A stretch of 64,000 nt of DNA. Origin: a virus (Duplodnaviria; Caudoviricetes). Positions 39,923 to 55,912 of the stretch are shown here, piece by piece. Location: IMG/VR virus record IMGVR_UViG_2786546475_000032, positions 1 through 64,000 of that record, one strand, 5' to 3'. The stretch's first letter is position 1, and each line of letters begins with the position of its first letter. The notes beneath the pieces are model-generated. The model was not told the DNA's origin and did no database searches. It saw only the letters and a program-made list of their open reading frames with translations. A program made the translations under genes and the position numbers.

Positions 39923-40626
39923 CTTACCACTATAACTTTCGTTACCGCTATATGCGTTTGTGGTCTGGACTATATCATCACCCTCGACTATACGTTAGGG
40001 TGCCGGAAGCTCTAGCCTGTATTCAGGTAGTCTCTACACCTTCCCCATCCTTGGGGCTTGGATCGGGATCGCCATCGTCTTTAACCGTTAAGGTTTCCCC
40101 GAATTCATCCGGTTCAATATTGAAGTTTCCCTCAATACGCTCAATTTTGAGAGTTGTGTAATCACGCTCGAAAATTTCTTTAGCCGGAGGCAACCTCTCC
40201 ATACCGTTCTGAACTTTAGCACCGTAAAGACCTGCGCACTTTCGTGAACAAAACGGGCCAGCCTTATCTTGGGTTAAGTTCTTACTAAATGTGCGAAGTC
40301 TATCTCCCTCCAAAGAAAAAGAGGTTGAACACATAGGGCATTCAAACTCAACAGGTTTCAACCTTTTCACATCTTCTCTCGAATGTTGTGAACGATCCAT
40401 AACTCGTAAATTTGAAATTGCATTATTCGTGAAGTCACAATCTATATGATCCACAGTTTCATCGTCTGTCAGGAATCTCCTAAGATGATTCTCCATCAGA
40501 TATTTGGGATACGAAACTGTTTTTCTTTTACCAGTTTCTTTATGGACTAAACAAACATGTTTACGACCATCTTTCCTAGTGTAAGGACCATATAATTTGT
40601 AATCTTCATACATAACTCTCTCCTAA
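39923..40626 (-). mobile_element. Group I intron (IC3-like) in the tRNA-Leu(UAA) anticodon
   Basis: 5' exon ends in U and intron ends in G; P GAATTCGGGGAA, Q GATCCCGATCCAAGC, R GTAGAGACTAC, S GATGATATAGTCC; AATTGAG P1 strand as in canonical Leu(UAA) introns. Confidence 0.88.
40023..40613 (-). CDS. Intron-encoded HNH homing endonuclease with C-terminal Zn finger
   Basis: TVDHIDCDFTNNAISNL HNH motif; CPMC...FCSRKC; AGGAG RBS inside the intron. Confidence 0.88.
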   Translation of the reverse strand: MYEDYKLYGPYTRKDGRKHVCLVHKETGKRKTVSYPKYLMENHLRRFLTDDETVDHIDCDFTNNAISNLRVMDRSQHSREDVKRLKPVEFECPMCSTSFSLEGDRLRTFSKNLTQDKAGPFCSRKCAGLYGAKVQNGMERLPPAKEIFERDYTTLKIERIEGNFNIEPDEFGETLTVKDDGDPDPSPKDGEGVETT

Positions 40627-42845: not shown

Positions 42846-44078
42846 TCATACCACCTCTTCCATAAACTTGAAGAATCCATCGTCGTTAGCTAGCATGTAA
42901 GCATCGGAGATAGGTTCGACAAACTCTTTAGTCTTGAGATAGCTGGTGATATGACACGTACAAATACGCTTATCACCTTTCTTCTTATTGACCAAATCAT
43001 GACGAACCATATCTTCAGCGTCAGTAACCAACATCAAATCAGCATCGCTTTTACTAACCTCGATGTTTTCGAGGGTATATATCAACGCTGTTTCAAGATG
43101 TGTGCCACCACCAGCGGTCAGCTTCAACAACTTATTCATCAATTGAGGGAAAGAATCTTTGTTCGTCCCGAATAATCTAGTGACTGAAGAGAAGACAAAG
43201 AGATTAAACCCTCTATTATCGTTAGAGAGAGACTTCATCATAGCCAGGGTTGCACCGATAGCTACACAAAACCTCTTGTGCTGTTTGTTGTTAAATGACA
43301 TGTAAGCATCCATCGACCCAGACATATCCAGAAGAATATCGACGGAACCTTTACCAACAGGTTGCACACGCTCACGCTTGTATTGTGTGATTTGTTTACT
43401 GGCTAACCTGTAATAGAAGAGATCTTCCATTTCAGGAACGGCCATATTCACAACCTCGCCAAAAGTCATACTCTTCAAATCATTACCAAACGTTATCTCA
43501 GAACGGTTAGTAGGATCTGGAAGGACTTGGCTACGTTTGATAGCGTTGATGTGTGCGTAAAGAGCGCCGAAACAATCCATAATAGATTTAACATCTGGAC
43601 TATCCATCTTACGCATCAACTCTCGACGCGCTTCAAAATCCTCATCGCTAAAGTTTTGAGCAGGATCGTTTTCGGCATACTTTCCTGCTGCGGTTGTCAT
43701 GAGCAAGTCATCCACATTGTCTTGTTTAGACTTGAGATTCTCCTCATCGGCCTTGTATGAATCCTCCTCATACAATGCTTGGATAACCTGTTTTGCCTTG
43801 TAGTCATCACCGCTATCAAAAGAATCATCGGTATCAACATCCTTTTTATCAGCGTGATTGATCATCATATCAGCCTGTTCAATACACTTGATGATGTTAT
43901 TCGAGATAGCATCACGAGTCATTTGAACGCTGGAGATTTCATCAATTGTTTCTGTGAAGTCATTCACTTTCTCACCAGTGTAGAAGTAGTGAACAACAGG
44001 CTTCAACTTATCAGGAGATGATTTGGTATCACACTTATCAATGTAATAATCATAAATCATCTCTTGGTATTTATTCAT
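42846..44078 (-). CDS. von Willebrand factor A domain protein (ViaA/CoxE-like)
   Basis: MIDAS motif LLDMSGSM, GGGT, LVTDA. Confidence 0.85.
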   Translation of the reverse strand: MNKYQEMIYDYYIDKCDTKSSPDKLKPVVHYFYTGEKVNDFTETIDEISSVQMTRDAISNNIIKCIEQADMMINHADKKDVDTDDSFDSGDDYKAKQVIQALYEEDSYKADEENLKSKQDNVDDLLMTTAAGKYAENDPAQNFSDEDFEARRELMRKMDSPDVKSIMDCFGALYAHINAIKRSQVLPDPTNRSEITFGNDLKSMTFGEVVNMAVPEMEDLFYYRLASKQITQYKRERVQPVGKGSVDILLDMSGSMDAYMSFNNKQHKRFCVAIGATLAMMKSLSNDNRGFNLFVFSSVTRLFGTNKDSFPQLMNKLLKLTAGGGTHLETALIYTLENIEVSKSDADLMLVTDAEDMVRHDLVNKKKGDKRICTCHITSYLKTKEFVEPISDAYMLANDDGFFKFMEEVV

Positions 44079-44294
44079 CCTCGATTACCTCCAAGTCTTC
44101 ATCTGTTGGATAGATGAAACCGTAGTGGTGTCCATCTTTAGGATTGTATTTAGGATCGTCAGGTACGAAGATCCAGTATCTATTATGCTTTGGATTGCGA
44201 TAGAGTTTACCAACTGTACCAACGGGTGGTGTACCAGCAATCCAAACATCTTCTCTAAGAAGGCGAACCTTGCAACCGTGTTTAAATTCAGGCA

Positions 44295-45431
44295 TTACAT
44301 ACTCCTGTAGCGACGGGAGATTTGACGAAAACCAGCCTTGAATTCCGCCATAATATCTTTCAAGTGATGAGCTTTATCAGGATTGTTTTTAATCTTTGAT
44401 TCAAGCTCATCCTTACGCTCTTTAAGTTGGACAAACAGTTTGCCCAACTCTTTCTTATCATCCATCTTGTTAGCAATAGCGATAAGAGCAACCGACTCGT
44501 TATAGAGTGTTTGGAACCTATCGACTGTAGCGCTAACAAACTCGCTATGAGTAAGCAACTGTGCGATAGCTTCACGATCATCAGGATTATCCCAAAGACA
44601 ATCAGTAAGGTATCGAACATGATCCTTATCCAGTTTGTCAACGCCTTGCATCCACGCGATAGCTTGAAGAAACTTCACACACGCTTTCCAACGCCTATCA
44701 GACACATAGACCTTATCATGTAAGCCAAACTCAGGAACCTTCAACATGGTTCGCAAAAGAGTAAGCGGCTCGATAATATCTGTAATATCCACGTTAGCAG
44801 CTTGTTTACCAGCATCTTCGAGATCTTTGATAGACAGCTTGTCGCCATCATCGAGATCATCAACCTTGCTAGCTGTCAGCATAGCAGCGAATGAAGAATC
44901 AGCCTTCAAAGGTTGAACATGCATTCGACAGATGAAGCGGTCATACAATGCGCCGAGTGATTCATCTTGCGGCAATTCGTTAGAAGCGCCGAACAAGCTA
45001 ATCAATGGAGCTTGAATGTTTTGATTGCCATTCGCAAACTTGCGCTCCTGCATGATGGTGAGGAGCGCGTTCAAGACTTGAGAGTTAGACTTCCAAATCT
45101 CATCGAGAAACGCAACGTGAACATCTGCAAGGAATCCTTCAGTGTTGTACTCCAGTTTATCATCATCGCGCAACGCTTTGATAGAGACTGGACCGAACAC
45201 TTCACTAACATCTGTGTGAGCAGTCATGAGCTTGTCAAAGTATTTCACTGTATCGAAACACTTGAGATACTCAGTGATGAGATAGCTCTTACCAATTCCT
45301 GGCAAACCTAGCATAAAAGCGTGTTGCCCACTAACTGTACAAGCCAGCATGTTGCGAATTTCTGTATCACGTTCCAAGACAATCGTGTTAAGACGATCTT
45401 GAACCTTTGCAAACTTTGCTTGTGTACTCAT
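44295..45431 (-). CDS. MoxR-family AAA+ ATPase (RavA-like)
   Basis: GLPGIGKS, EVFGP, FLDEIWK, NALLT, ASNELP, ALYDRF, SDRRW; start reassigned to ATG 45431. Confidence 0.9.
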   Translation of the reverse strand: MSTQAKFAKVQDRLNTIVLERDTEIRNMLACTVSGQHAFMLGLPGIGKSYLITEYLKCFDTVKYFDKLMTAHTDVSEVFGPVSIKALRDDDKLEYNTEGFLADVHVAFLDEIWKSNSQVLNALLTIMQERKFANGNQNIQAPLISLFGASNELPQDESLGALYDRFICRMHVQPLKADSSFAAMLTASKVDDLDDGDKLSIKDLEDAGKQAANVDITDIIEPLTLLRTMLKVPEFGLHDKVYVSDRRWKACVKFLQAIAWMQGVDKLDKDHVRYLTDCLWDNPDDREAIAQLLTHSEFVSATVDRFQTLYNESVALIAIANKMDDKKELGKLFVQLKERKDELESKIKNNPDKAHHLKDIMAEFKAGFRQISRRYRSM

Positions 45432-45529
45432 TTTATCCTCTCGTGTGATAGATACGGGAACCATCCCGACACTATTAATTTTAATCGCCAAAAGTATGAA
45501 TCAAGGCGATTGAACTAATTTTTCGTACA

Positions 45530-52083: not shown

Positions 52084-52756
52084 TTTTTTCTTCATCTTTT
52101 TAAAATAATTATATTCCTTTTAGAAATAAATTCATGATATATATTTATATATATCACTCAAAAAACCCCACCCAAAAAGAAAAACAAAAAGAAACCCTAC
52201 TCAGATAGATAAAGAGAATCCAGATATAGAGAAGGAAGATATAGTATTAATAGATATGTCTAAAACAAATACACACTAAGACAATACCTAAATAAAGGAT
52301 ACCGACACACATATAACACACAAACCTAGCTCATATTGATACACCTTTGAAAACCTCTATGTTTTAGATTGTTGTAAATCACCCATATTCAGAAGATTGT
52401 TGTAAATTTTGGCTACCGAAAAACGATATCTCAAACTTATACATAGCTTATAAAGGGGTTTTACACTAATAGGGGTCATATTGATACCCTTAGTTAGATA
52501 TAGGGGCCATATCGTGTTAATATGGGTTAAAAAGAGGTGTTTAAGGTTGACTTAGGTCTAAAAGAGGCATGTTTAAGGGGTAGGTCAGAATGATATGGGT
52601 TTGTTAGACATATGATAAATGAAGTTTACATAATGCCATCCCCGCATATCATCTGGCGACAGGTTTAAAAGATATGGGTCAGGGTTGGTTGTATTTAAAA
52701 GATCTGATATAGATTTGATATATCTTACAGCAGGTTCTCAAGCGGCTTTAGCCGCG

Positions 52757-52870
52757 TTTTGACCCCTATTTAAAAGATATATGTAGAACGATGATAAAGG
52801 CAGTTTACATAATGCCTTCTGAACTTATTCTATATCTCTTAGACATATATCTTTTAAATAGGGGTCAAAA
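52757..52870. repeat. Perfect 28-bp inverted repeat enclosing a lone XerD-like arm
   Basis: ttttgacccctatttaaaagatatatgt (52757-52784) and its reverse complement (52843-52870). Confidence 0.85.
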
Positions 52871-53209
52871 AGCTGTCTTACCCTAGGGCCAAAAAAAACG
52901 AACAACTATATCTCACCCGCATATATAGCTATCTTTAGGCAATCGTCTAAATGTACCATTTTTTGATATAGGTCTAAAAAAGTGTAACAAGTTTGGAGTT
53001 TTTCCTAGATGCGGATCATAAAATGGCAATTTTTACAGCAGGTTCACAAGCGGCTTTAGCCGCGATATGTAGGAAATAGATATAGGCTATATCAAAAAGA
53101 TAATGGTCGAGTCCGATAAGTGATATTATGTAAACCAGGCCCCCAGGGGGTAGAAGGTCCGATAAGTGATATTATGTAAACTCGTTTCACAAGGGGGTCG
53201 CAAGCGATT

Positions 53210-53326
53210 TTTTAGATAGGGGTAAAAATGATATACTTCCTTCTCTATATCTGTATTCTATATCTTCCTTCTCTATATCTGTATTCTATATCTTCCTTCT
53301 CTATATCTTTTTACCCCTATCTAAAA
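53210..53326. repeat. 19-bp inverted repeat enclosing a 28-bp tandem repeat (~2.6 units)
   Basis: ttttagataggggtaaaaa / tttttacccctatctaaaa around (cttccttctctatatctgtattctatat)n. Confidence 0.85.
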
Positions 53327-53366
53327 CAAGGTCCGATAAGACCGCATTATGTAAACTTGGTTTAGA

Positions 53367-53648
53367 TGCAAAATATGTGCCAAAAAATTAGGCATGACTT
53401 TTGCATATGGAAAAGCTGATAAACCAAGTTTACATAATGCGCGGCTTGCAACCCCCGTGCCAACTATTCAAAAAATGGTAAAATAATTCAAGGTCCGATA
53501 AGTCGTGTTATGTAAACTAGCTGAGTTTACATAATACCCGCAAGCCGATCCACAAGCTGGCGGAAATGTCAAGAGAAATTTGTAATTATTTTTATGCAGG
53601 AGCCTTTCAAAATCCGTGCCAACTTTCGGTATGCAATCCCTATGCCAA
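53367..53648. promoter_or_regulatory. Five sigma-54 -24/-12 motifs
   Basis: YWGGCAY-N5-TTGCA at 53367(-), 53389(+), 53447(-), 53606(-, TTGAA variant), 53632(-). Confidence 0.78.
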
Positions 53649-53677
53649 CTTTTTACACAAATTTCGACTTGCACCTA

Positions 53678-53813
53678 ATTATACCATACTCCGAATATGA
53701 ATTACAAGATCTTTTTTCAACTTTTTTCAGCGTCCGATAAGTTGTGTTATGTAAACTTCGGGTTCACAGAATTCGAGCAAGCGATTTTACCATATTGATT
53801 TATGGTTTGTCAA
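53678..53813 (-). promoter_or_regulatory. Two extended -10 sigma-70-type promoters
   Basis: TTGTAA-N18-TATAAT (53678-53707) and TTGACA-N18-TAAAAT (53784-53813), both with TATGG before the -10; third copy TTTACA-N18-TATAAT at 55022-55051. Confidence 0.65.
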
Positions 53814-53881
53814 AGGGTTTTTTCAACTTTTTTAGCGTCCGGTAAGAGGCATTATGTCAACTTGTCGGGTAGGTCAAAAAG

Positions 53882-53904
53882 AAAGCCCTCAAAAAGAGGG
53901 CTTA
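53882..53904 (-). terminator. Intrinsic terminator after the 53934 ORF
   Basis: aagccctc-aaaaa-gagggctt with an adjacent A tract (U tract on -). Confidence 0.65.
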
Positions 53905-53933
53905 TTTAAGATGGGTTGATTTGATATAGATTT

Positions 53934-54269
53934 TTAGATGAGTGCGCACTTGATGCGCTCTGGGCGAACCCTCTCTCTTATATCATTGTAAACCATATAC
54001 ATCTCAAAAATGGTCTCTGGAGGGTTAGGGGGATTATTATTACTCTCATATTGATACAGGTCGAAACGATACCTATTTCCATTGTTGATCACAGTGATAG
54101 TATCACCAGTAATATAAACTTTATTATCCCCCTTGACATAATCATAGTTCAAGGTGAGCACCTTTCTACCATGCGTAGTTTTGTGACGCTTGCTAAGGGT
54201 GTAACCTTCAGCTTTGATCCAATTGTGAATGTCGTAGAGAGCGCTAGCGATAAGATTAGCCATTTTCAA
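53934..54269 (-). CDS. Hypothetical protein
   Basis: ORF with AAGGA RBS followed by a terminator. Confidence 0.55.
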   Translation of the reverse strand: MKMANLIASALYDIHNWIKAEGYTLSKRHKTTHGRKVLTLNYDYVKGDNKVYITGDTITVINNGNRYRFDLYQYESNNNPPNPPETIFEMYMVYNDIRERVRPERIKCALI

Positions 54270-54329
54270 AATCCTTTTTTGGATTAGGGTTAAAACAAGA
54301 TAGGTCGGAATGACCTATCTCTATGTGCA

Positions 54330-54369
54330 ATACCCCTTGAGGAATCGAACCTCGTAACCGGTAGGGGTA
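54330..54369 (-). ncRNA. Anticodon-less tRNA mimic
   Basis: TACCCCT-accggttac-GAGG-TTCGATT-CCTC-a-AGGGGTA. Confidence 0.6.
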
Positions 54370-54385
54370 AAAGATATATCTCTAT

Positions 54386-54772
54386 TCAGTAGGGTTTGGG
54401 ATAGTGGTGCTTATTGGTGCCAGTCAGATAGTGTTTAATCTGGCCTTCCTCATCTACCATCCAATTCCAGGGATGGAAAAACTCGCTACCTGGCTTGTCG
54501 CACTGGTAGACCATCATGAGGAATGATTTACTCTGTTTCTTCTCGCCATCAAACTTCCACGCGAGGGTATCAGCGTAAGTAACGTAGGCGCTAGGATTGG
54601 AGCAGTATTCCTCACGGTTAGCAGCGCTAGGACTACTAACCATCGCGGTGTACCGCGCGAATGCTTTCTGAGTGTCACTGACCCCTAAGTCAGCGATAGC
54701 TTGGGTGGCATACCAGAAGGTGGCGCACGCGAGAAGAATTCCAGCCACGATCGTCAAGTCAGCTTTCGTCAT
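54386..54772 (-). CDS. Hypothetical exported/membrane-anchored protein
   Basis: Start reassigned to ATG 54772 (GAGG RBS); N-terminal hydrophobic helix; upstream TTGTTT-N17-TACACT promoter. Confidence 0.6.
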   Translation of the reverse strand: MTKADLTIVAGILLACATFWYATQAIADLGVSDTQKAFARYTAMVSSPSAANREEYCSNPSAYVTYADTLAWKFDGEKKQSKSFLMMVYQCDKPGSEFFHPWNWMVDEEGQIKHYLTGTNKHHYPKPY

Positions 54773-55103
54773 GTTCGTAACCTCATGTTCATGTTTCAGT
54801 GTGTCGCTCTCGTTCAGTACACCCTGAGTGTACATGACGATTGATGAAAAAACAATACCCCAAAGTAAGAAACAAGGACTTTTTTGCATAGAAAATCCCG
54901 AACACCAGCTATGCATCATTCGCATATTTCAAAGGTTGGAGAATGGTCGTTCGCCAGGGGCATAGGTCAATTTGAGGTATATCTTTTTGAAGGGGGTCGA
55001 TTACACGGGGGTGCCAAGCCGATTATACCATACCTCAAATATGGTTGTAAAGCATTATTTCAAACTATTTTCGCACCGATTATGTCAACCCGCGTTATCA
55101 CTC

Positions 55104-55893
55104 AGTTGACATAATACCGCTTATCAGACTTTCTAAAAGATAGGGTAAGGGTGATATAGCTCTTAAAGAGGTAGGTCGATTCAGCTATATCATTTAGGGG
55201 TAGGTCAGAATAGTAGGTGGGAGATTGCTGTATCTCTTTAATAGGGTTAACGAGAGTGTTCTTACAAGAGGTAGTGTAGAATGATGTGGGTTTAAAAGAG
55301 GTATGCTGAAAAGGTGGGTCAAACAAACCCACCTCATCTGATACCCTCTTTTGGATATGTTGAATCATCTTGTTCAATCCAAGTGTTCAAAACGCTTTTG
55401 TATATAAGCTTTCAACACTTCATTTCAACATAAGCTAAAATCCTTATATGCAATTCAAGTGTTGAAAGGCTTATGTTTAGTTGTAAAAATAACCGTAAAA
55501 ATAATTCTGTTAGTATTAAGTGCAAAACTTGCGAGAAGGGCTCTAGAAGGCTCGTGAGAGGACGCTATTTCGCTACCCTTGTCAGTGTATTGACCTATCC
55601 TTTCAAATGGATTCTGAGCCAATCTGTGGACCCCGTTTCACCCGCATAGAATGCGGACTTCCGGCATTATCTAATAGATTTCATGCCTGGATCACAGTTT
55701 CAAGAGTTTGTCAAGCGATCGGCCAAAATAGCTTAATTTTCCTGGCACACACCTTGCATACACTACCTCATCATTACCTATATCTATTTAACCTATCCCT
55801 TTTTACACCCATAGCGACTTGGATGCAAAACCTGTGCCAAGCCTGTTTGTCAACAAAAATCCTGAAGTTGACATAACGCACCTTATCGGACCT
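55104..55893 (-). other. Two dif-like XerC/XerD sites in the opposite orientation
   Basis: AAGTCTGATAA-GCGGTA-TTATGTCAACT (55104-55131) and AGGTCCGATAA-GGTGCG-TTATGTCAACT (55866-55893). Confidence 0.8.
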
Positions 55894-55912
55894 TTTGCAA
55901 GATCAGTGCCAA
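55742..55912. promoter_or_regulatory. Three sigma-54 -24/-12 motifs
   Basis: CTGGCACACACCTTGCA 55742(+), TTGGCACAGGTTTTGCA 55824(-), TTGGCACTGATCTTGCA 55896(-). Confidence 0.8.

What the first reader, a model, noticed from the sequence alone, without database searches (positions are those of the whole stretch)
53109..55893. Eight complete dif-like sites with mostly different central spacers
Seen: arm GTCYGRTAA, spacer, arm TTATGTMAAC(T). Spacers are GTGATA, GTGATA, GACCGCA (7 nt), GTCGTG, GTTGTG, GAGGCA (+) and GCGGTA, GGTGCG (-). Established: dif is 11-6-11 with a conserved TTATGT XerD arm, chromosomes have one, Xer-exploiting phages carry one attP, and strand exchange needs spacer compatibility. 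Inference: conserved arms with divergent spacers (the only identical pair is just 46 bp apart) point to selection for XerCD binding without self-recombination, e.g. blocking host dimer resolution and division. An alternative is a panel of attP sites for different hosts. The arm sequence should help identify the host.
Basis: partly seen in the sequence, partly recalled or inferred. Interest (0 to 1): 0.85.

Follow-up and report, generated by a model that had tools for sequence, protein, structure and literature searches.

The report
Xer binding-site array in marine phage
A large marine phage packs eight complete copies and six half copies of its host lineage's chromosome-resolution (dif) site into 3.3 kb of mostly non-coding DNA, interleaved with promoters, which suggests it uses the host XerC/XerD proteins as DNA-binding factors rather than as recombinases.

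Summary
Window 53109-55893 holds eight sites with arms GTCYGRTAA and TTATGTMAAC, seven with 6-nt spacers and one with 7 nt (0.6 expected by chance). Six more lone XerD-type arms lie within 52624-55956. None occurs in about 136 kb of the rest of the roughly 140-kb genome.

The arms match the single-copy chromosomal dif of Acidobacteriota, Desulfobacterota, Nitrospirota and Myxococcota. One assembly of this phage is binned in an "Acidobacteria" MAG. The spacers are GC-rich (59% against 25% in chromosomal dif), and none recurs in 240 comparison sites.

The array is identical and colinear in independent Tara Oceans assemblies and in runs from 2014 to 2020, with no joints at the sites. No integrase, XafT-like gene or ParB gene was found.

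New here: the sites sit in a promoter hub. Eight of 14 Xer elements lie 45-110 bp upstream of predicted leftward start sites (three strong sigma-70 promoters and six sigma-54 boxes; random mean 1.15).

My best reading (about 0.37) is non-recombining XerC/XerD binding sites used as promoter-architecture elements. Rivals are addressed recombination joints, SMC unloading, a decoy, an attP panel and a non-Xer binder.

This scan has noted dif-like arrays in other large phages. Those sit between genes and do not carry true host dif arms.

The parts
53109..53136 (+). Site A, complete dif-like site (XerC-type arm, spacer GTGATA, XerD-type arm)
53155..53182 (+). Site B, complete dif-like site with spacer GTGATA; exact duplicate of the A core, 46 bp away
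53329..53357 (+). Site C, complete dif-like site with 7-nt spacer GACCGCA; the predicted start of sigma-54 box 53368-53382 falls on the outer end of its XerD arm
53491..53518 (+). Site D, spacer GTCGTG; centre about -69 from the predicted start of sigma-54 box 53448-53462
53730..53757 (+). Site E, spacer GTTGTG; centre about -73 from the start of the minus-strand sigma-70 promoter 53678-53707, directly upstream of an A-tract (UP-like) element
53835..53862 (+). Site F, spacer GAGGCA; centre about -72 from the start of the minus-strand sigma-70 promoter 53784-53813; left border of the two-gene cassette
55103..55131 (-). Site G, spacer GCGGTA; right border of the cassette, inverted relative to F with XerD arms facing inward; centre about -102 from the start of promoter 55022-55051
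   Evidence: (I5)
55865..55893 (-). Site H, spacer GGTGCG; centre about -66 from the start of sigma-54 box 55825-55839; sigma-54 box 55897-55911 lies 5 nt from its XerC arm
52624..52633 (-). Lone XerD-type arm with an outer TGATAA partner
   Evidence: D5
52803..52812 (-). Lone XerD-type arm with an outer TGATAA partner, inside a 31-nt inverted repeat
   Evidence: D5, I3
53428..53437 (-). Lone XerD-type arm c'; forms a perfect 22-nt inverted repeat with the arm of site C; the predicted start of sigma-54 box 53448-53462 falls on it
   Evidence: (I15)
53525..53534 (-). Lone XerD-type arm d', palindromic partner of site D's arm, 7 nt away
55080..55089 (+). Lone XerD-type arm g'; paralogue of the E/F promoter unit that lacks the XerC arm; centre about -69.5 from the start of promoter 55022-55051
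   Evidence: (D3)
55947..55956 (-). Lone XerD-type arm h'; centre about -66.5 from the predicted start of sigma-54 box 55897-55911
53368..53382 (-). Sigma-54 box, perfect TGGCAC-N5-TTGCA
53448..53462 (-). Sigma-54 box, perfect
53607..53647 (-). Two tandem sigma-54 boxes, each with one mismatch
55743..55757 (+). Sigma-54 box, perfect; the only plus-strand one; convergent with 55825-55839
55825..55839 (-). Sigma-54 box, perfect
55897..55911 (-). Sigma-54 box, perfect; 5 nt from site H's XerC arm
53678..53707 (-). Sigma-70-type promoter: TTGTAA, 18-nt gap, TGgTATAAT (extended -10)
53784..53813 (-). Sigma-70-type promoter: TTGACA, 18-nt gap, TGgTAAAAT (extended -10)
55022..55051 (-). Sigma-70-type promoter: TTTACA, 18-nt gap, TGgTATAAT; drives the two-gene cassette
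53883..54925 (-). The only coding cassette inside the array: ORF 54386-54925 (an orphan), ORF 53934-54269, and terminator 53883-53903

Best explanation
The array is a set of binding sites for the host's XerC and XerD proteins, built into a phage promoter hub. The arms are kept exactly as in the host lineage's chromosomal dif, so the host proteins should bind. The spacers are left free and have become GC-rich and mutually different, so the sites are poor partners for each other and for the host dif. Several sites have lost the XerC arm altogether.

Most elements lie about 55-110 bp upstream of leftward promoters, either strong sigma-70 promoters with A-tracts or sigma-54 boxes. Three sigma-54 boxes would start transcription right on a Xer arm.

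I infer that bound XerC/XerD, which bend DNA, act in cis as architectural or regulatory factors for these promoters. Because Xer proteins are scarce, their occupancy would fall as phage DNA copies accumulate, which could time early transcription.

- **Shown:** the sites, their match to host dif, the spacer statistics, the stability of the array, and the geometry relative to consensus promoters.
- **Inferred:** binding by XerC/XerD, absence of recombination, activity of the promoters, and any effect on transcription.
For: 1. **Arms are host dif arms.** A scan of one genome per species gave one exact match per record, mainly in Desulfobacterota and 'delta proteobacteria', Nitrospirota, Acidobacteriota and Myxococcota, with some Bacillota. 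In Acidobacteriota, 27 of 151 genomes had an exact match and the reversed control had none.
2. **Selection pattern.** Arms carry 2 bits per position. Spacer positions 2-6 and the flanks carry 0.1-0.7 bits at most positions (up to 1.5 bits at a few flank positions).
3. **Spacers are unlike working recombination sites.** Mean GC is 0.59, against 0.255 in 119 chromosomal sites and 0.346 in 121 single viral sites (p = 7e-5 and 4e-4). None of the 7 distinct spacers occurs in either set.
4. **Six lone XerD arms** cannot recombine. Three have the XerC-like TGATAA on the wrong, outer side.
5. **Promoter geometry.** Eight of 14 elements lie wholly within -45..-110 of a predicted minus-strand start (random mean 1.15, P < 5e-5). 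Without the paralogues F and g' the count is 6 of 12 (P = 2.5e-4). XerD-arm spacings of 80-81 bp occur three times, each with a sigma-54 box between the arms.
6. **Stability.** No joints, indels or base changes in contigs of four runs from 2014, 2018 and 2020 in two studies. The region is 100% identical in two further assemblies.
7. **No phage recombinase or Xer activator**.
8. **Precedent.** The model in which XerCD close to the Pcer promoter represses it within the ColE1 cer site (PMC4393325).
Against: - There are no binding data, no expression data and no identified host.
- The promoters are consensus predictions only, and the distance window was chosen after looking at the data.
- E, F and g' are paralogous units, so their shared geometry may be inherited rather than selected.
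- Five elements (A, B, C and the two at 52.6-52.8 kb) have no predicted promoter downstream.
- No sigma-54 activator was found in the phage.
- The leftward promoters at 53.3-53.8 kb lie more than 1.2 kb from the next gene.
- XerC/XerD acting as transcription factors is not an established function.
- Contigs drop rare variants, so low-frequency recombination is not excluded.
- The array could not be compared in a close relative, and a more distant relative lacks it at the syntenic place.
Confidence: 0.37

Rival explanations
1. Addressed recombination joints, working like pdif sites. Each site recombines, through host XerCD, only with the same-spacer site on another copy or on a related co-infecting phage. 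The segments between sites (promoter cassettes and the two-gene cassette) can then be swapped, or concatemers resolved, without deleting the array.
For: - The spacers are unique, as this model needs.
- The one coding cassette is bounded by inverted sites F and G with XerD arms inward, the layout of a D-type dif module (I5; PMC13141974).
- Plasmid and phage Xer sites often have spacers unlike dif.
- Earlier notes of this scan read arrays with unique centres in other large phages this way.
- Two small contigs carry two direct sites with different spacers (L075; L270).
Against: - Six consecutive sites are in direct orientation, whereas dif modules need alternating C/D and D/C sites.
- Six of the seven intervals between sites are non-coding and only 21-736 bp long.
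- The lone arms and the promoter geometry are left unexplained.
- No variant arrangement appears in any assembly or run.
- The cassette's larger ORF has no homologue anywhere, so no module sharing can be shown.
Confidence: 0.2
2. A cis-acting array that unloads or blocks host SMC complexes. Clustered XerD-bound sites would remove or stall loop-extruding SMC complexes (Smc-ScpAB or Wadjet-type) on phage DNA, as XerD does at XDS sites in the Bacillus subtilis terminus.
For: - There are 14 XerD arms, six of them without a XerC arm, in a dense cluster with no sign of recombination.
- XerD bound at dif-like XDS sites unloads Smc-ScpAB, and an artificial XDS array blocks its movement (Karaboja 2021, as cited in PMC11840125).
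- Several sites are thought to be needed for efficient capture, as proposed for XDS and shown for matS sites and MukBEF (PMC10945525).
- Phages are known to counter SMC complexes: the title of PMC7617805 reports a viral DNA mimic that inhibits MukBEF.
Against: - XerD-dependent unloading is shown only in B. subtilis and on a chromosome.
- The idea does not explain the full XerC arms kept in eight sites, nor the fixed geometry with promoters.
- No ParB or parS loading system was found in the phage.
- It is not known that SMC complexes harm this phage.
Confidence: 0.12
3. The motif is read by a protein other than host XerC/XerD. Candidates are a phage regulator, or a Xer-like integrase of a satellite or integrative element. 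The likeness to dif would then reflect shared ancestry or mimicry.
For: - The sites lie in operator-like positions.
- Most phage genes near the array have no known function.
- In one Acidobacteriota genome (G022), a second dif-type site with spacer GTGATG lies 1 nt from a perfect sigma-54 box. It sits between an integrase gene and an HTH_17 gene, next to a D5-type primase gene, so it lies inside a mobile element's control region.
Against: - Both arms match the chromosomal dif consensus at every specified position in seven sites. This is hard to explain unless the same proteins bind.
- No tyrosine recombinase is encoded in about 136 of about 140 kb.
- The dif-plus-sigma-54 composite was found in only 1 of 201 genomes.
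Confidence: 0.13
4. A decoy. Replicating phage DNA soaks up XerC/XerD, and perhaps sigma-54 holoenzyme, and so blocks host chromosome dimer resolution and division.
For: - Many binding sites per genome, multiplied by phage copy number.
- The spacers do not suit recombination.
- Sigma-54 boxes mostly lack a gene to drive, and two of them face each other.
Against: - Only a minority of cells form chromosome dimers in a generation (established knowledge), so a lytic phage gains little.
- A decoy needs no fixed geometry with promoters.
- A decoy needs no clustering in one 3.3-kb stretch.
Confidence: 0.08
5. A panel of attP sites for Xer-mediated integration into the dif of different hosts.
For: - Phage-borne dif-like sites are the attP of Xer-exploiting phages.
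- At least 120 IMG/VR contigs carry one such site with these arms, often near a contig end.
- No integrase of its own was found.
Against: - The spacers match none of 119 chromosomal sites and depart from the [T/G]ATATA consensus.
- At roughly 140 kb it is far larger than the Xer-exploiting phages met in the literature searched here (filamentous phages, gokushoviruses and double jelly-roll phages), and no lysogeny genes were seen.
- No host junction appears in any run or assembly.
- Half-sites and promoter geometry are left unexplained.
Confidence: 0.06

Closest known systems
Chromosomal dif with XerC/XerD dimer resolution, in the form found in Acidobacteriota, Desulfobacterota and Nitrospirota
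   Same: The same two arms at every specified position, a 6-nt spacer in seven of eight sites, and the inner ATAA/TTAT symmetry.
   Different: Eight full copies plus six half copies on a phage, rather than one per chromosome. The spacers are GC-rich and all differ from the [T/G]ATATA centre. The sites sit among promoters.
attP sites of Xer-exploiting elements (IMEX): CTXphi, VGJphi, TLCphi and gokushovirus prophages
   Same: A dif-like site carried by a phage that has no integrase of its own (PMC4246890 and PMC7062461, listed).
   Different: Those elements are small, carry one site (or two that fold together) and integrate at dif. Here the phage is a roughly 140-kb tailed phage with 14 elements, and no sign of integration was found.
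pdif sites and dif modules of Acinetobacter Rep_3 plasmids
   Same: Many Xer sites with different spacers on one replicon. One cassette (F to G) is bounded by inverted sites with XerD arms inward.
   Different: dif modules alternate in orientation, carry genes and rearrange where spacers match. Here six sites are direct, most intervals are non-coding and under 250 bp, and no rearrangement is seen.
XDS sites: XerD-bound, dif-like sites that unload Smc-ScpAB in the Bacillus subtilis terminus
   Same: Clustered XerD-binding sites that act by binding, not by recombination. That XDS sites keep mainly the XerD half is my own recollection and was not checked in a paper here.
   Different: XDS sites are chromosomal and lie in the terminus region. 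The function is shown only in B. subtilis, and no link to promoters is known.
ColE1 cer with its internal promoter Pcer (Rcd RNA)
   Same: A promoter placed at a Xer site and thought to be controlled by the closeness of bound XerCD.
   Different: cer is a single, recombination-active site with accessory sequences. Here there are many sites, and sigma-54 as well as sigma-70 promoters.
Phage phi29 Spo0A boxes and parS-like Spo0J sites (from my own knowledge, not checked here)
   Same: A lytic phage carries arrays of binding sites for host chromosome-associated proteins at its early promoters.
   Different: Different host proteins, a different host phylum, and a purpose tied to sporulation.

Membership tests
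dif-type XerC/XerD core site | XerC-side arm matching the lineage's chromosomal dif | tested here: met
   GTCYGRTAA is exact in all 8 sites. The same arm is found once per genome in many bacteria.
dif-type XerC/XerD core site | XerD-side arm TTATGTMAAC(T) | tested here: met
   Exact in all 8 sites and in 6 lone copies.
dif-type XerC/XerD core site | Central spacer of 6 nt (6-8 nt tolerated in plasmid sites) | tested here: met
   Seven sites have 6 nt and one has 7 nt.
dif-type XerC/XerD core site | Conserved AT-rich centre, as in chromosomal dif | tested here: not met
   Array spacers average 59% GC against 25.5% in chromosomal sites, and none is shared with them.
dif-type XerC/XerD core site | Binding and cleavage by XerC and XerD | not testable with these tools
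   This needs purified proteins or an in vivo assay.
IMEX attP | Phage-host junctions at the host dif, or prophage copies flanked by hybrid sites | tested here: not met
   No joints or host-like loose ends at the sites in 4 runs. Other assemblies are colinear. Contigs can miss rare forms.
IMEX attP | Spacer compatible with the host dif on the exchanging side | tested here: inconclusive
   Position 1 is G, as in 42% of chromosomal sites. The rest differs, and the true host dif is unknown.
pdif sites / dif modules | Several Xer sites on one replicon | tested here: met
   Eight complete sites.
pdif sites / dif modules | Sites alternate C/D and D/C, so that C and D modules alternate | tested here: not met
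   The order is + + + + + + - -. Only the F/G pair is inverted.
pdif sites / dif modules | Modules carry genes and are found in other contexts | tested here: not met
   Only one of seven intervals codes for protein, and its larger ORF has no homologue among 1.84 billion representatives.
pdif sites / dif modules | Inversions or deletions between sites with identical or near-identical spacers | tested here: not met
   None is seen at A/B (identical spacers) or D/E (one mismatch) in any contig. Raw reads were not available.
XDS (XerD-dependent SMC unloading sites) | Clustered dif-like sites in which the XerD half is the conserved part | tested here: met
   14 XerD arms, 6 of them without a XerC arm.
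XDS (XerD-dependent SMC unloading sites) | Location in the chromosomal replication terminus | tested here: not met
   The sites are on a phage, in the middle of a leftward gene block and not at the skew switch near 23 kb.
XDS (XerD-dependent SMC unloading sites) | Unloading of Smc-ScpAB | not testable with these tools
   This needs ChIP or Hi-C.
Sigma-54 promoters (interleaved elements) | -24/-12 consensus TGGCAC-N5-TTGCW | tested here: met
   5 perfect and 2 one-mismatch matches, all within 53367-55911. No other zero-mismatch match in the 64-kb window.
Sigma-54 promoters (interleaved elements) | An enhancer-binding AAA+ activator | tested here: not met
   No Sigma54_activat match above cut-off. 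The nearest AAA+ protein is a MoxR. A host activator remains possible.

The most novel reading that the evidence does not exclude
A virulent-type phage has turned the host's chromosome-resolution proteins XerC/XerD into cis-acting chromatin or transcription factors. A dense array of catalytically disabled dif sites and XerD half-sites, interleaved with sigma-54 and sigma-70 promoters, would then do one of two things. It could time early transcription by titrating scarce Xer proteins as phage DNA copies rise. Or it could strip or stall host SMC loop extruders on phage DNA.
Probability: 0.3. Interest if true: 0.85.

Novelty: new variant of a known kind. Interest (0 to 1): 0.72.

Why it matters
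Xer sites are known as recombination sites: chromosomal dif, plasmid cer, psi and pdif, and phage attP. More recently, in one bacterium, they were shown to be XerD landing pads that unload SMC complexes.

An array of 14 Xer elements with perfect arms but scrambled centres, set at fixed distances from promoters in a large marine phage, would be a first case of two things. It would be the first phage shown to recruit XerC/XerD for a purpose other than integration. It would also be a natural example of promoters built around Xer sites.

It gives directly testable predictions: binding without exchange, and promoter activity that depends on the Xer arms and on xerC/xerD. The arm sequence, together with the sigma-54 boxes, also narrows the host of an uncultured mesopelagic phage lineage.

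Tried and rejected
- **Close relatives of the array region:**
  - The search for related loci with the two ORFs next to or inside the array, and with the MoxR gene, found nothing in IMG/VR.
  - An alignment of large terminase (TerL) proteins found only contigs that begin at the TerL gene and run away from the array.
  - The nearest relative (TerL 71% and MoxR 62% identical) sits on a 96.5-kb contig that ends on both sides of the missing MoxR-TerL interval.
  - A more distant relative has no dif arms or sigma-54 boxes in the 10 kb upstream of MoxR.
  - The 337-aa neighbour ORF has only three distant homologues.
- **Similar arrays elsewhere:**
  - A full site followed by an inverted XerD arm occurs only in two small viral contigs.
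  - Direct pairs of full sites 10-40 or 60-90 bp apart occur nowhere in IMG/VR and in one 1.5-kb JGI contig.
  - None of the 120 viral contigs holding a single site is related to this phage.
- **Phage database:** no DNA match.
- **Expression:** no RNA holder is listed among the runs.
- **RNA reading:** Rfam gave nothing significant in the region.
- **Phage activator:** the weak Sigma54_activat hit is a MoxR ATPase paired with a VWA protein.
- **My first promoter reading was wrong:** I first read plus-strand TTCACA-N17-TATACC promoters. The scan shows this repeat is the reverse complement of strong minus-strand extended -10 promoters.
- **dif-plus-sigma-54 composite in the host lineage:** found in 1 of 201 Acidobacteriota genomes only.
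- **The MAG that holds the phage contig** could not be searched for its own dif, and no paper names it.
- **Module test:** the cassette's larger ORF is an orphan, so its context elsewhere could not be examined.

Full report
**What is there.** The window is the first 64 kb of a 103-kb IMG/VR virus record. The record belongs to a phage of about 140.5 kb, because its large terminase is also found on a 140,523-bp contig.

The pattern GTCYGRTAA-N6-TTATGT matches seven times, against 0.6 expected, and an eighth site has a 7-nt spacer.

The XerD-type 10-mer TTATGTMAAC occurs 16 times in the window, against 0.45 expected. Fourteen of these lie within 52624-55956. So there are six further lone XerD-type arms beyond the eight complete sites.

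No copy lies in the rest of the record. None lies in a further 33 kb or so of the genome, which I reached through other assemblies.

Whole bacterial genomes of 1.6-7.5 Mb hold only 2-12 copies of the 10-mer.

**The arms are real dif arms.** I scanned one genome per prokaryote species with the full pattern. The records were mostly Desulfobacterota and 'delta proteobacteria', Nitrospirota, Acidobacteriota and Myxococcota, with some Bacillota. Their spacers were TATATA, GATATA or TGTATA.

In a sample of the phylum of one Acidobacteriota hit, 27 of 151 genomes had an exact match, mostly one each, and the reversed control gave none. One of the 27, G150, is unpublished; the claim does not depend on it. 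In that sample the commonest form was GTCCGATAA followed by G, which is also the form that dominates in the phage.

IMG/VR holds at least 120 contigs with a single such site, many near a contig end, as expected for Xer-exploiting elements. None of them is related to this phage.

**Which phage, and which host.**
- It is a tailed phage with a Mu-type portal, an HK97-type capsid protein and a 2,892-residue tape measure.
- It also carries PhoH, ThyX, a MoxR-VWA pair, tRNAs and a group I intron. In the part outside the record it carries a helicase, a DnaC-like protein, a Pol III alpha subunit, SbcCD-like proteins, an MT-A70 methylase and a ribonucleotide reductase.
- It has no close cultured relative.
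- It comes from Tara Oceans marine samples.
- One assembly of it sits in NCBI MAG GCA_002715285.1, labelled 'Acidobacteria bacterium'. Binning is weak evidence, but it agrees with the arm type.
- The canonical TTGACA/TATAAT promoters and the sigma-54 boxes also argue against a cyanobacterial, SAR11 or Bacteroidota host. This last point rests on established knowledge, not on a test here.

**Selection pattern.** Across the eight sites the arms carry 2 bits per position. Most flank positions and spacer positions 2-6 carry 0.1-0.7 bits, and a few flank positions reach 1.5 bits. Spacer position 1 is always G.

The spacers average 59% GC in a region of 39% GC. This compares with 25.5% in 119 chromosomal sites and 34.6% in 121 single viral sites (p = 7e-5 and 4e-4). 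None of the seven distinct spacers occurs in either set.

A and B are an exact duplicate. D and E differ at one spacer position. The other pairs I compared differ at 2-4 positions.

E and F belong to a duplicated promoter unit. The 20 nt or so upstream of each site are the same apart from a 1-nt indel, yet only 2 of 6 spacer positions agree.

The nine leftmost arms are all TTATGTAAAC and the five rightmost all TTATGTCAAC. This points to local duplication, followed by free drift of everything except the arms.

**Stability.** Contigs from four runs (2014, 2018 and 2020; two studies) are colinear with the window across every site. They show no joint, indel or base change.

A Tara scaffold from another sample and a Logan contig are 100% identical across the array. 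The scaffold differs only by about 140 extra bases at 52366-52407, outside the sites. Contigs cannot show rare forms.

**No phage-encoded partner.**
- No Phage_integrase match in the 103 kb.
- None among the precomputed Pfam hits of the genes called in the further 33 kb.
- No DUF3653 (XafT-like) or ParB_N match.

**The surroundings change the picture.** The 52.1-56.1 kb stretch is gene-poor and full of repeat families.

It holds five perfect and two one-mismatch sigma-54 boxes. These five are the only zero-mismatch matches in the 64-kb window. Six of the seven boxes are on the minus strand.

The repeated 'ATTATACCATAC' unit is the reverse complement of strong minus-strand promoters with extended -10 elements (TGGTATAAT or TGGTAAAAT) and upstream A-tracts, at 53678-53707, 53784-53813 and 55022-55051.

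The promoter at 55022-55051 drives the only coding cassette (ORFs 54386-54925 and 53934-54269), which ends at a terminator at 53883-53903.

I estimated start sites from these consensus elements. Eight of the 14 Xer elements lie wholly within -45 to -110 of a leftward start, against a random mean of 1.15 (P < 5e-5). Without the paralogues F and g' the count is 6 of 12 (P = 2.5e-4).

| Element | Centre relative to the nearest leftward start |
|---|---|
| D | -69 |
| E | -73 |
| F | -72 |
| H | -66 |
| G | -102 |
| c' | -76.5 |
| d' | -93.5 |
| g' | -69.5 |
| h' | -66.5 |

XerD arms are spaced 80-81 bp apart three times (53347, 53428, 53508; and 55867, 55947), with a sigma-54 box between each pair.

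Three sigma-54 boxes would start transcription on a Xer arm: at 53356, at 53436 and at 55885.

Bases 53343-53441 form a palindromic module of XerD arm, sigma-54 box, sigma-54-like box and XerD arm (I15).

The window for the test was chosen after seeing the data, and there are no RNA data, so this is a strong hint and not proof.

**Interpretation.** The combination is best explained by selection for binding by host XerC/XerD without exchange. That combination is perfect arms, unconstrained and GC-rich centres, half-sites, three arms paired with a wrongly placed TGATAA, no rearrangements and no phage recombinase.

The promoter geometry suggests what the binding is for: architectural or regulatory control of a leftward promoter hub. 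There is a precedent in the model that XerCD close to Pcer represses it within ColE1 cer (PMC4393325).

Because Xer proteins are scarce, occupancy would fall as phage DNA accumulates, which could act as a timer. That step is my inference.

**Rivals.**
- **Addressed joints, pdif-like.** These would explain the unique spacers and the inverted F/G pair. However, dif modules need alternating orientation, genes inside the modules, and rearrangements at matching spacers (PMC13141974), and none of these is met here.
- **SMC unloading.** XerD bound at dif-like XDS sites unloads Smc-ScpAB, and arrays block it. This fits the half-sites and the density of the array, but not the retained XerC arms or the promoter spacing.
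- **Decoy.** It needs neither clustering nor fixed geometry.
- **attP panel.** It is contradicted by the spacers and by the absence of junctions.
- **A non-Xer binder.** This cannot be excluded. In one Acidobacteriota genome a second dif-type site (spacer GTGATG) lies 1 nt from a perfect sigma-54 box, between an integrase gene and an HTH_17 gene of a mobile element. That composite was found in only 1 of 201 genomes.

**Comparison with earlier notes of this scan.** Other first-stage notes on this same stretch pointed to the sigma-54 boxes and the lone arms. I tested both and they hold.

Notes on other genomes describe arrays of dif-like palindromes with unique centres between the genes of large phages, read there as gene-swap joints. 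The present array differs in three ways. Its arms are true host dif arms, its intervals are mostly non-coding, and it is tied to promoters.

**Verdict.** The feature is real, stable and very unusual, and its mechanism is open.

Noticed in passing
window 53367-55911: Seven sigma-54 consensus boxes (five perfect) cluster only here. Most have no gene downstream, and two (55743 on the plus strand, 55825 on the minus strand) face each other about 45 bp apart. No enhancer-binding activator was found in the phage.
   Followed up: partly
window 52469-55211 and 54344-54372: A further repeat family, (A)TAGGGGTMAAAA, occurs about 9 times in both orientations. It often forms long inverted repeats around other elements, for example 52754-52784 with 52843-52873, and 53210-53228 with 53308-53326.
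   Followed up: no
window 53231-53308 and 52207-52256: A 28-bp unit is repeated 2.8 times in tandem (98% matches). A related copy in inverted orientation lies about 1 kb to the left (42 nt, 86% complementary).
   Followed up: no
window 52366-52407: A Tara scaffold from another sample carries about 140 extra bases here, which looks like a repeat copy-number difference. It is the only difference from the record in 7.5 kb, and Logan contigs also break at this place.
   Followed up: partly
L273:9897-9937 (G022:C2, about 2,696,896): An Acidobacteriota chromosome has, besides its canonical dif, a second dif-type site (spacer GTGATG) lying 1 nt from a perfect sigma-54 box. It sits in an AT-rich gap between a tyrosine integrase gene and an HTH_17 gene, next to LuxR-type and D5-type primase genes, so it is inside a mobile element. 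It was the only such composite in 201 genomes.
   Followed up: partly
L270:427-541 and L075:2283-2478: Two small contigs (one from JGI metagenomes, one from IMG/VR) each carry two direct dif-type sites with different spacers, 114 and 171 bp apart, in what look like phage early regions.
   Followed up: no
L161 and L116: One low-GC bacterial MAG contig and one viral contig each carry four direct dif-like sites with variant XerC arms spread over 1.3-5 kb. This looks like tandem Xer-exploiting elements stacked at dif.
   Followed up: no
window 42846-45491: The phage encodes a MoxR-type AAA+ ATPase next to a VWA-domain protein. The pair is conserved in related phages.
   Followed up: partly
L268/L269 (NCBI PAYU01000075.1): A 37-kb piece of this phage is binned in MAG GCA_002715285.1, labelled 'Acidobacteria bacterium'. 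The phage is about 38% GC.
   Followed up: partly
window 39953-40161: A group I intron was found by Rfam. First-stage notes place it inside a phage tRNA-Leu gene.
   Followed up: no
contigs of related phages (L255, L256, L260): Several relatives' contigs begin within 2 kb upstream of the large terminase gene. The nearest relative's 96.5-kb contig ends just upstream of MoxR, so the interval that holds the array in this phage is missing from it. Repeats there may break assemblies.
   Followed up: no
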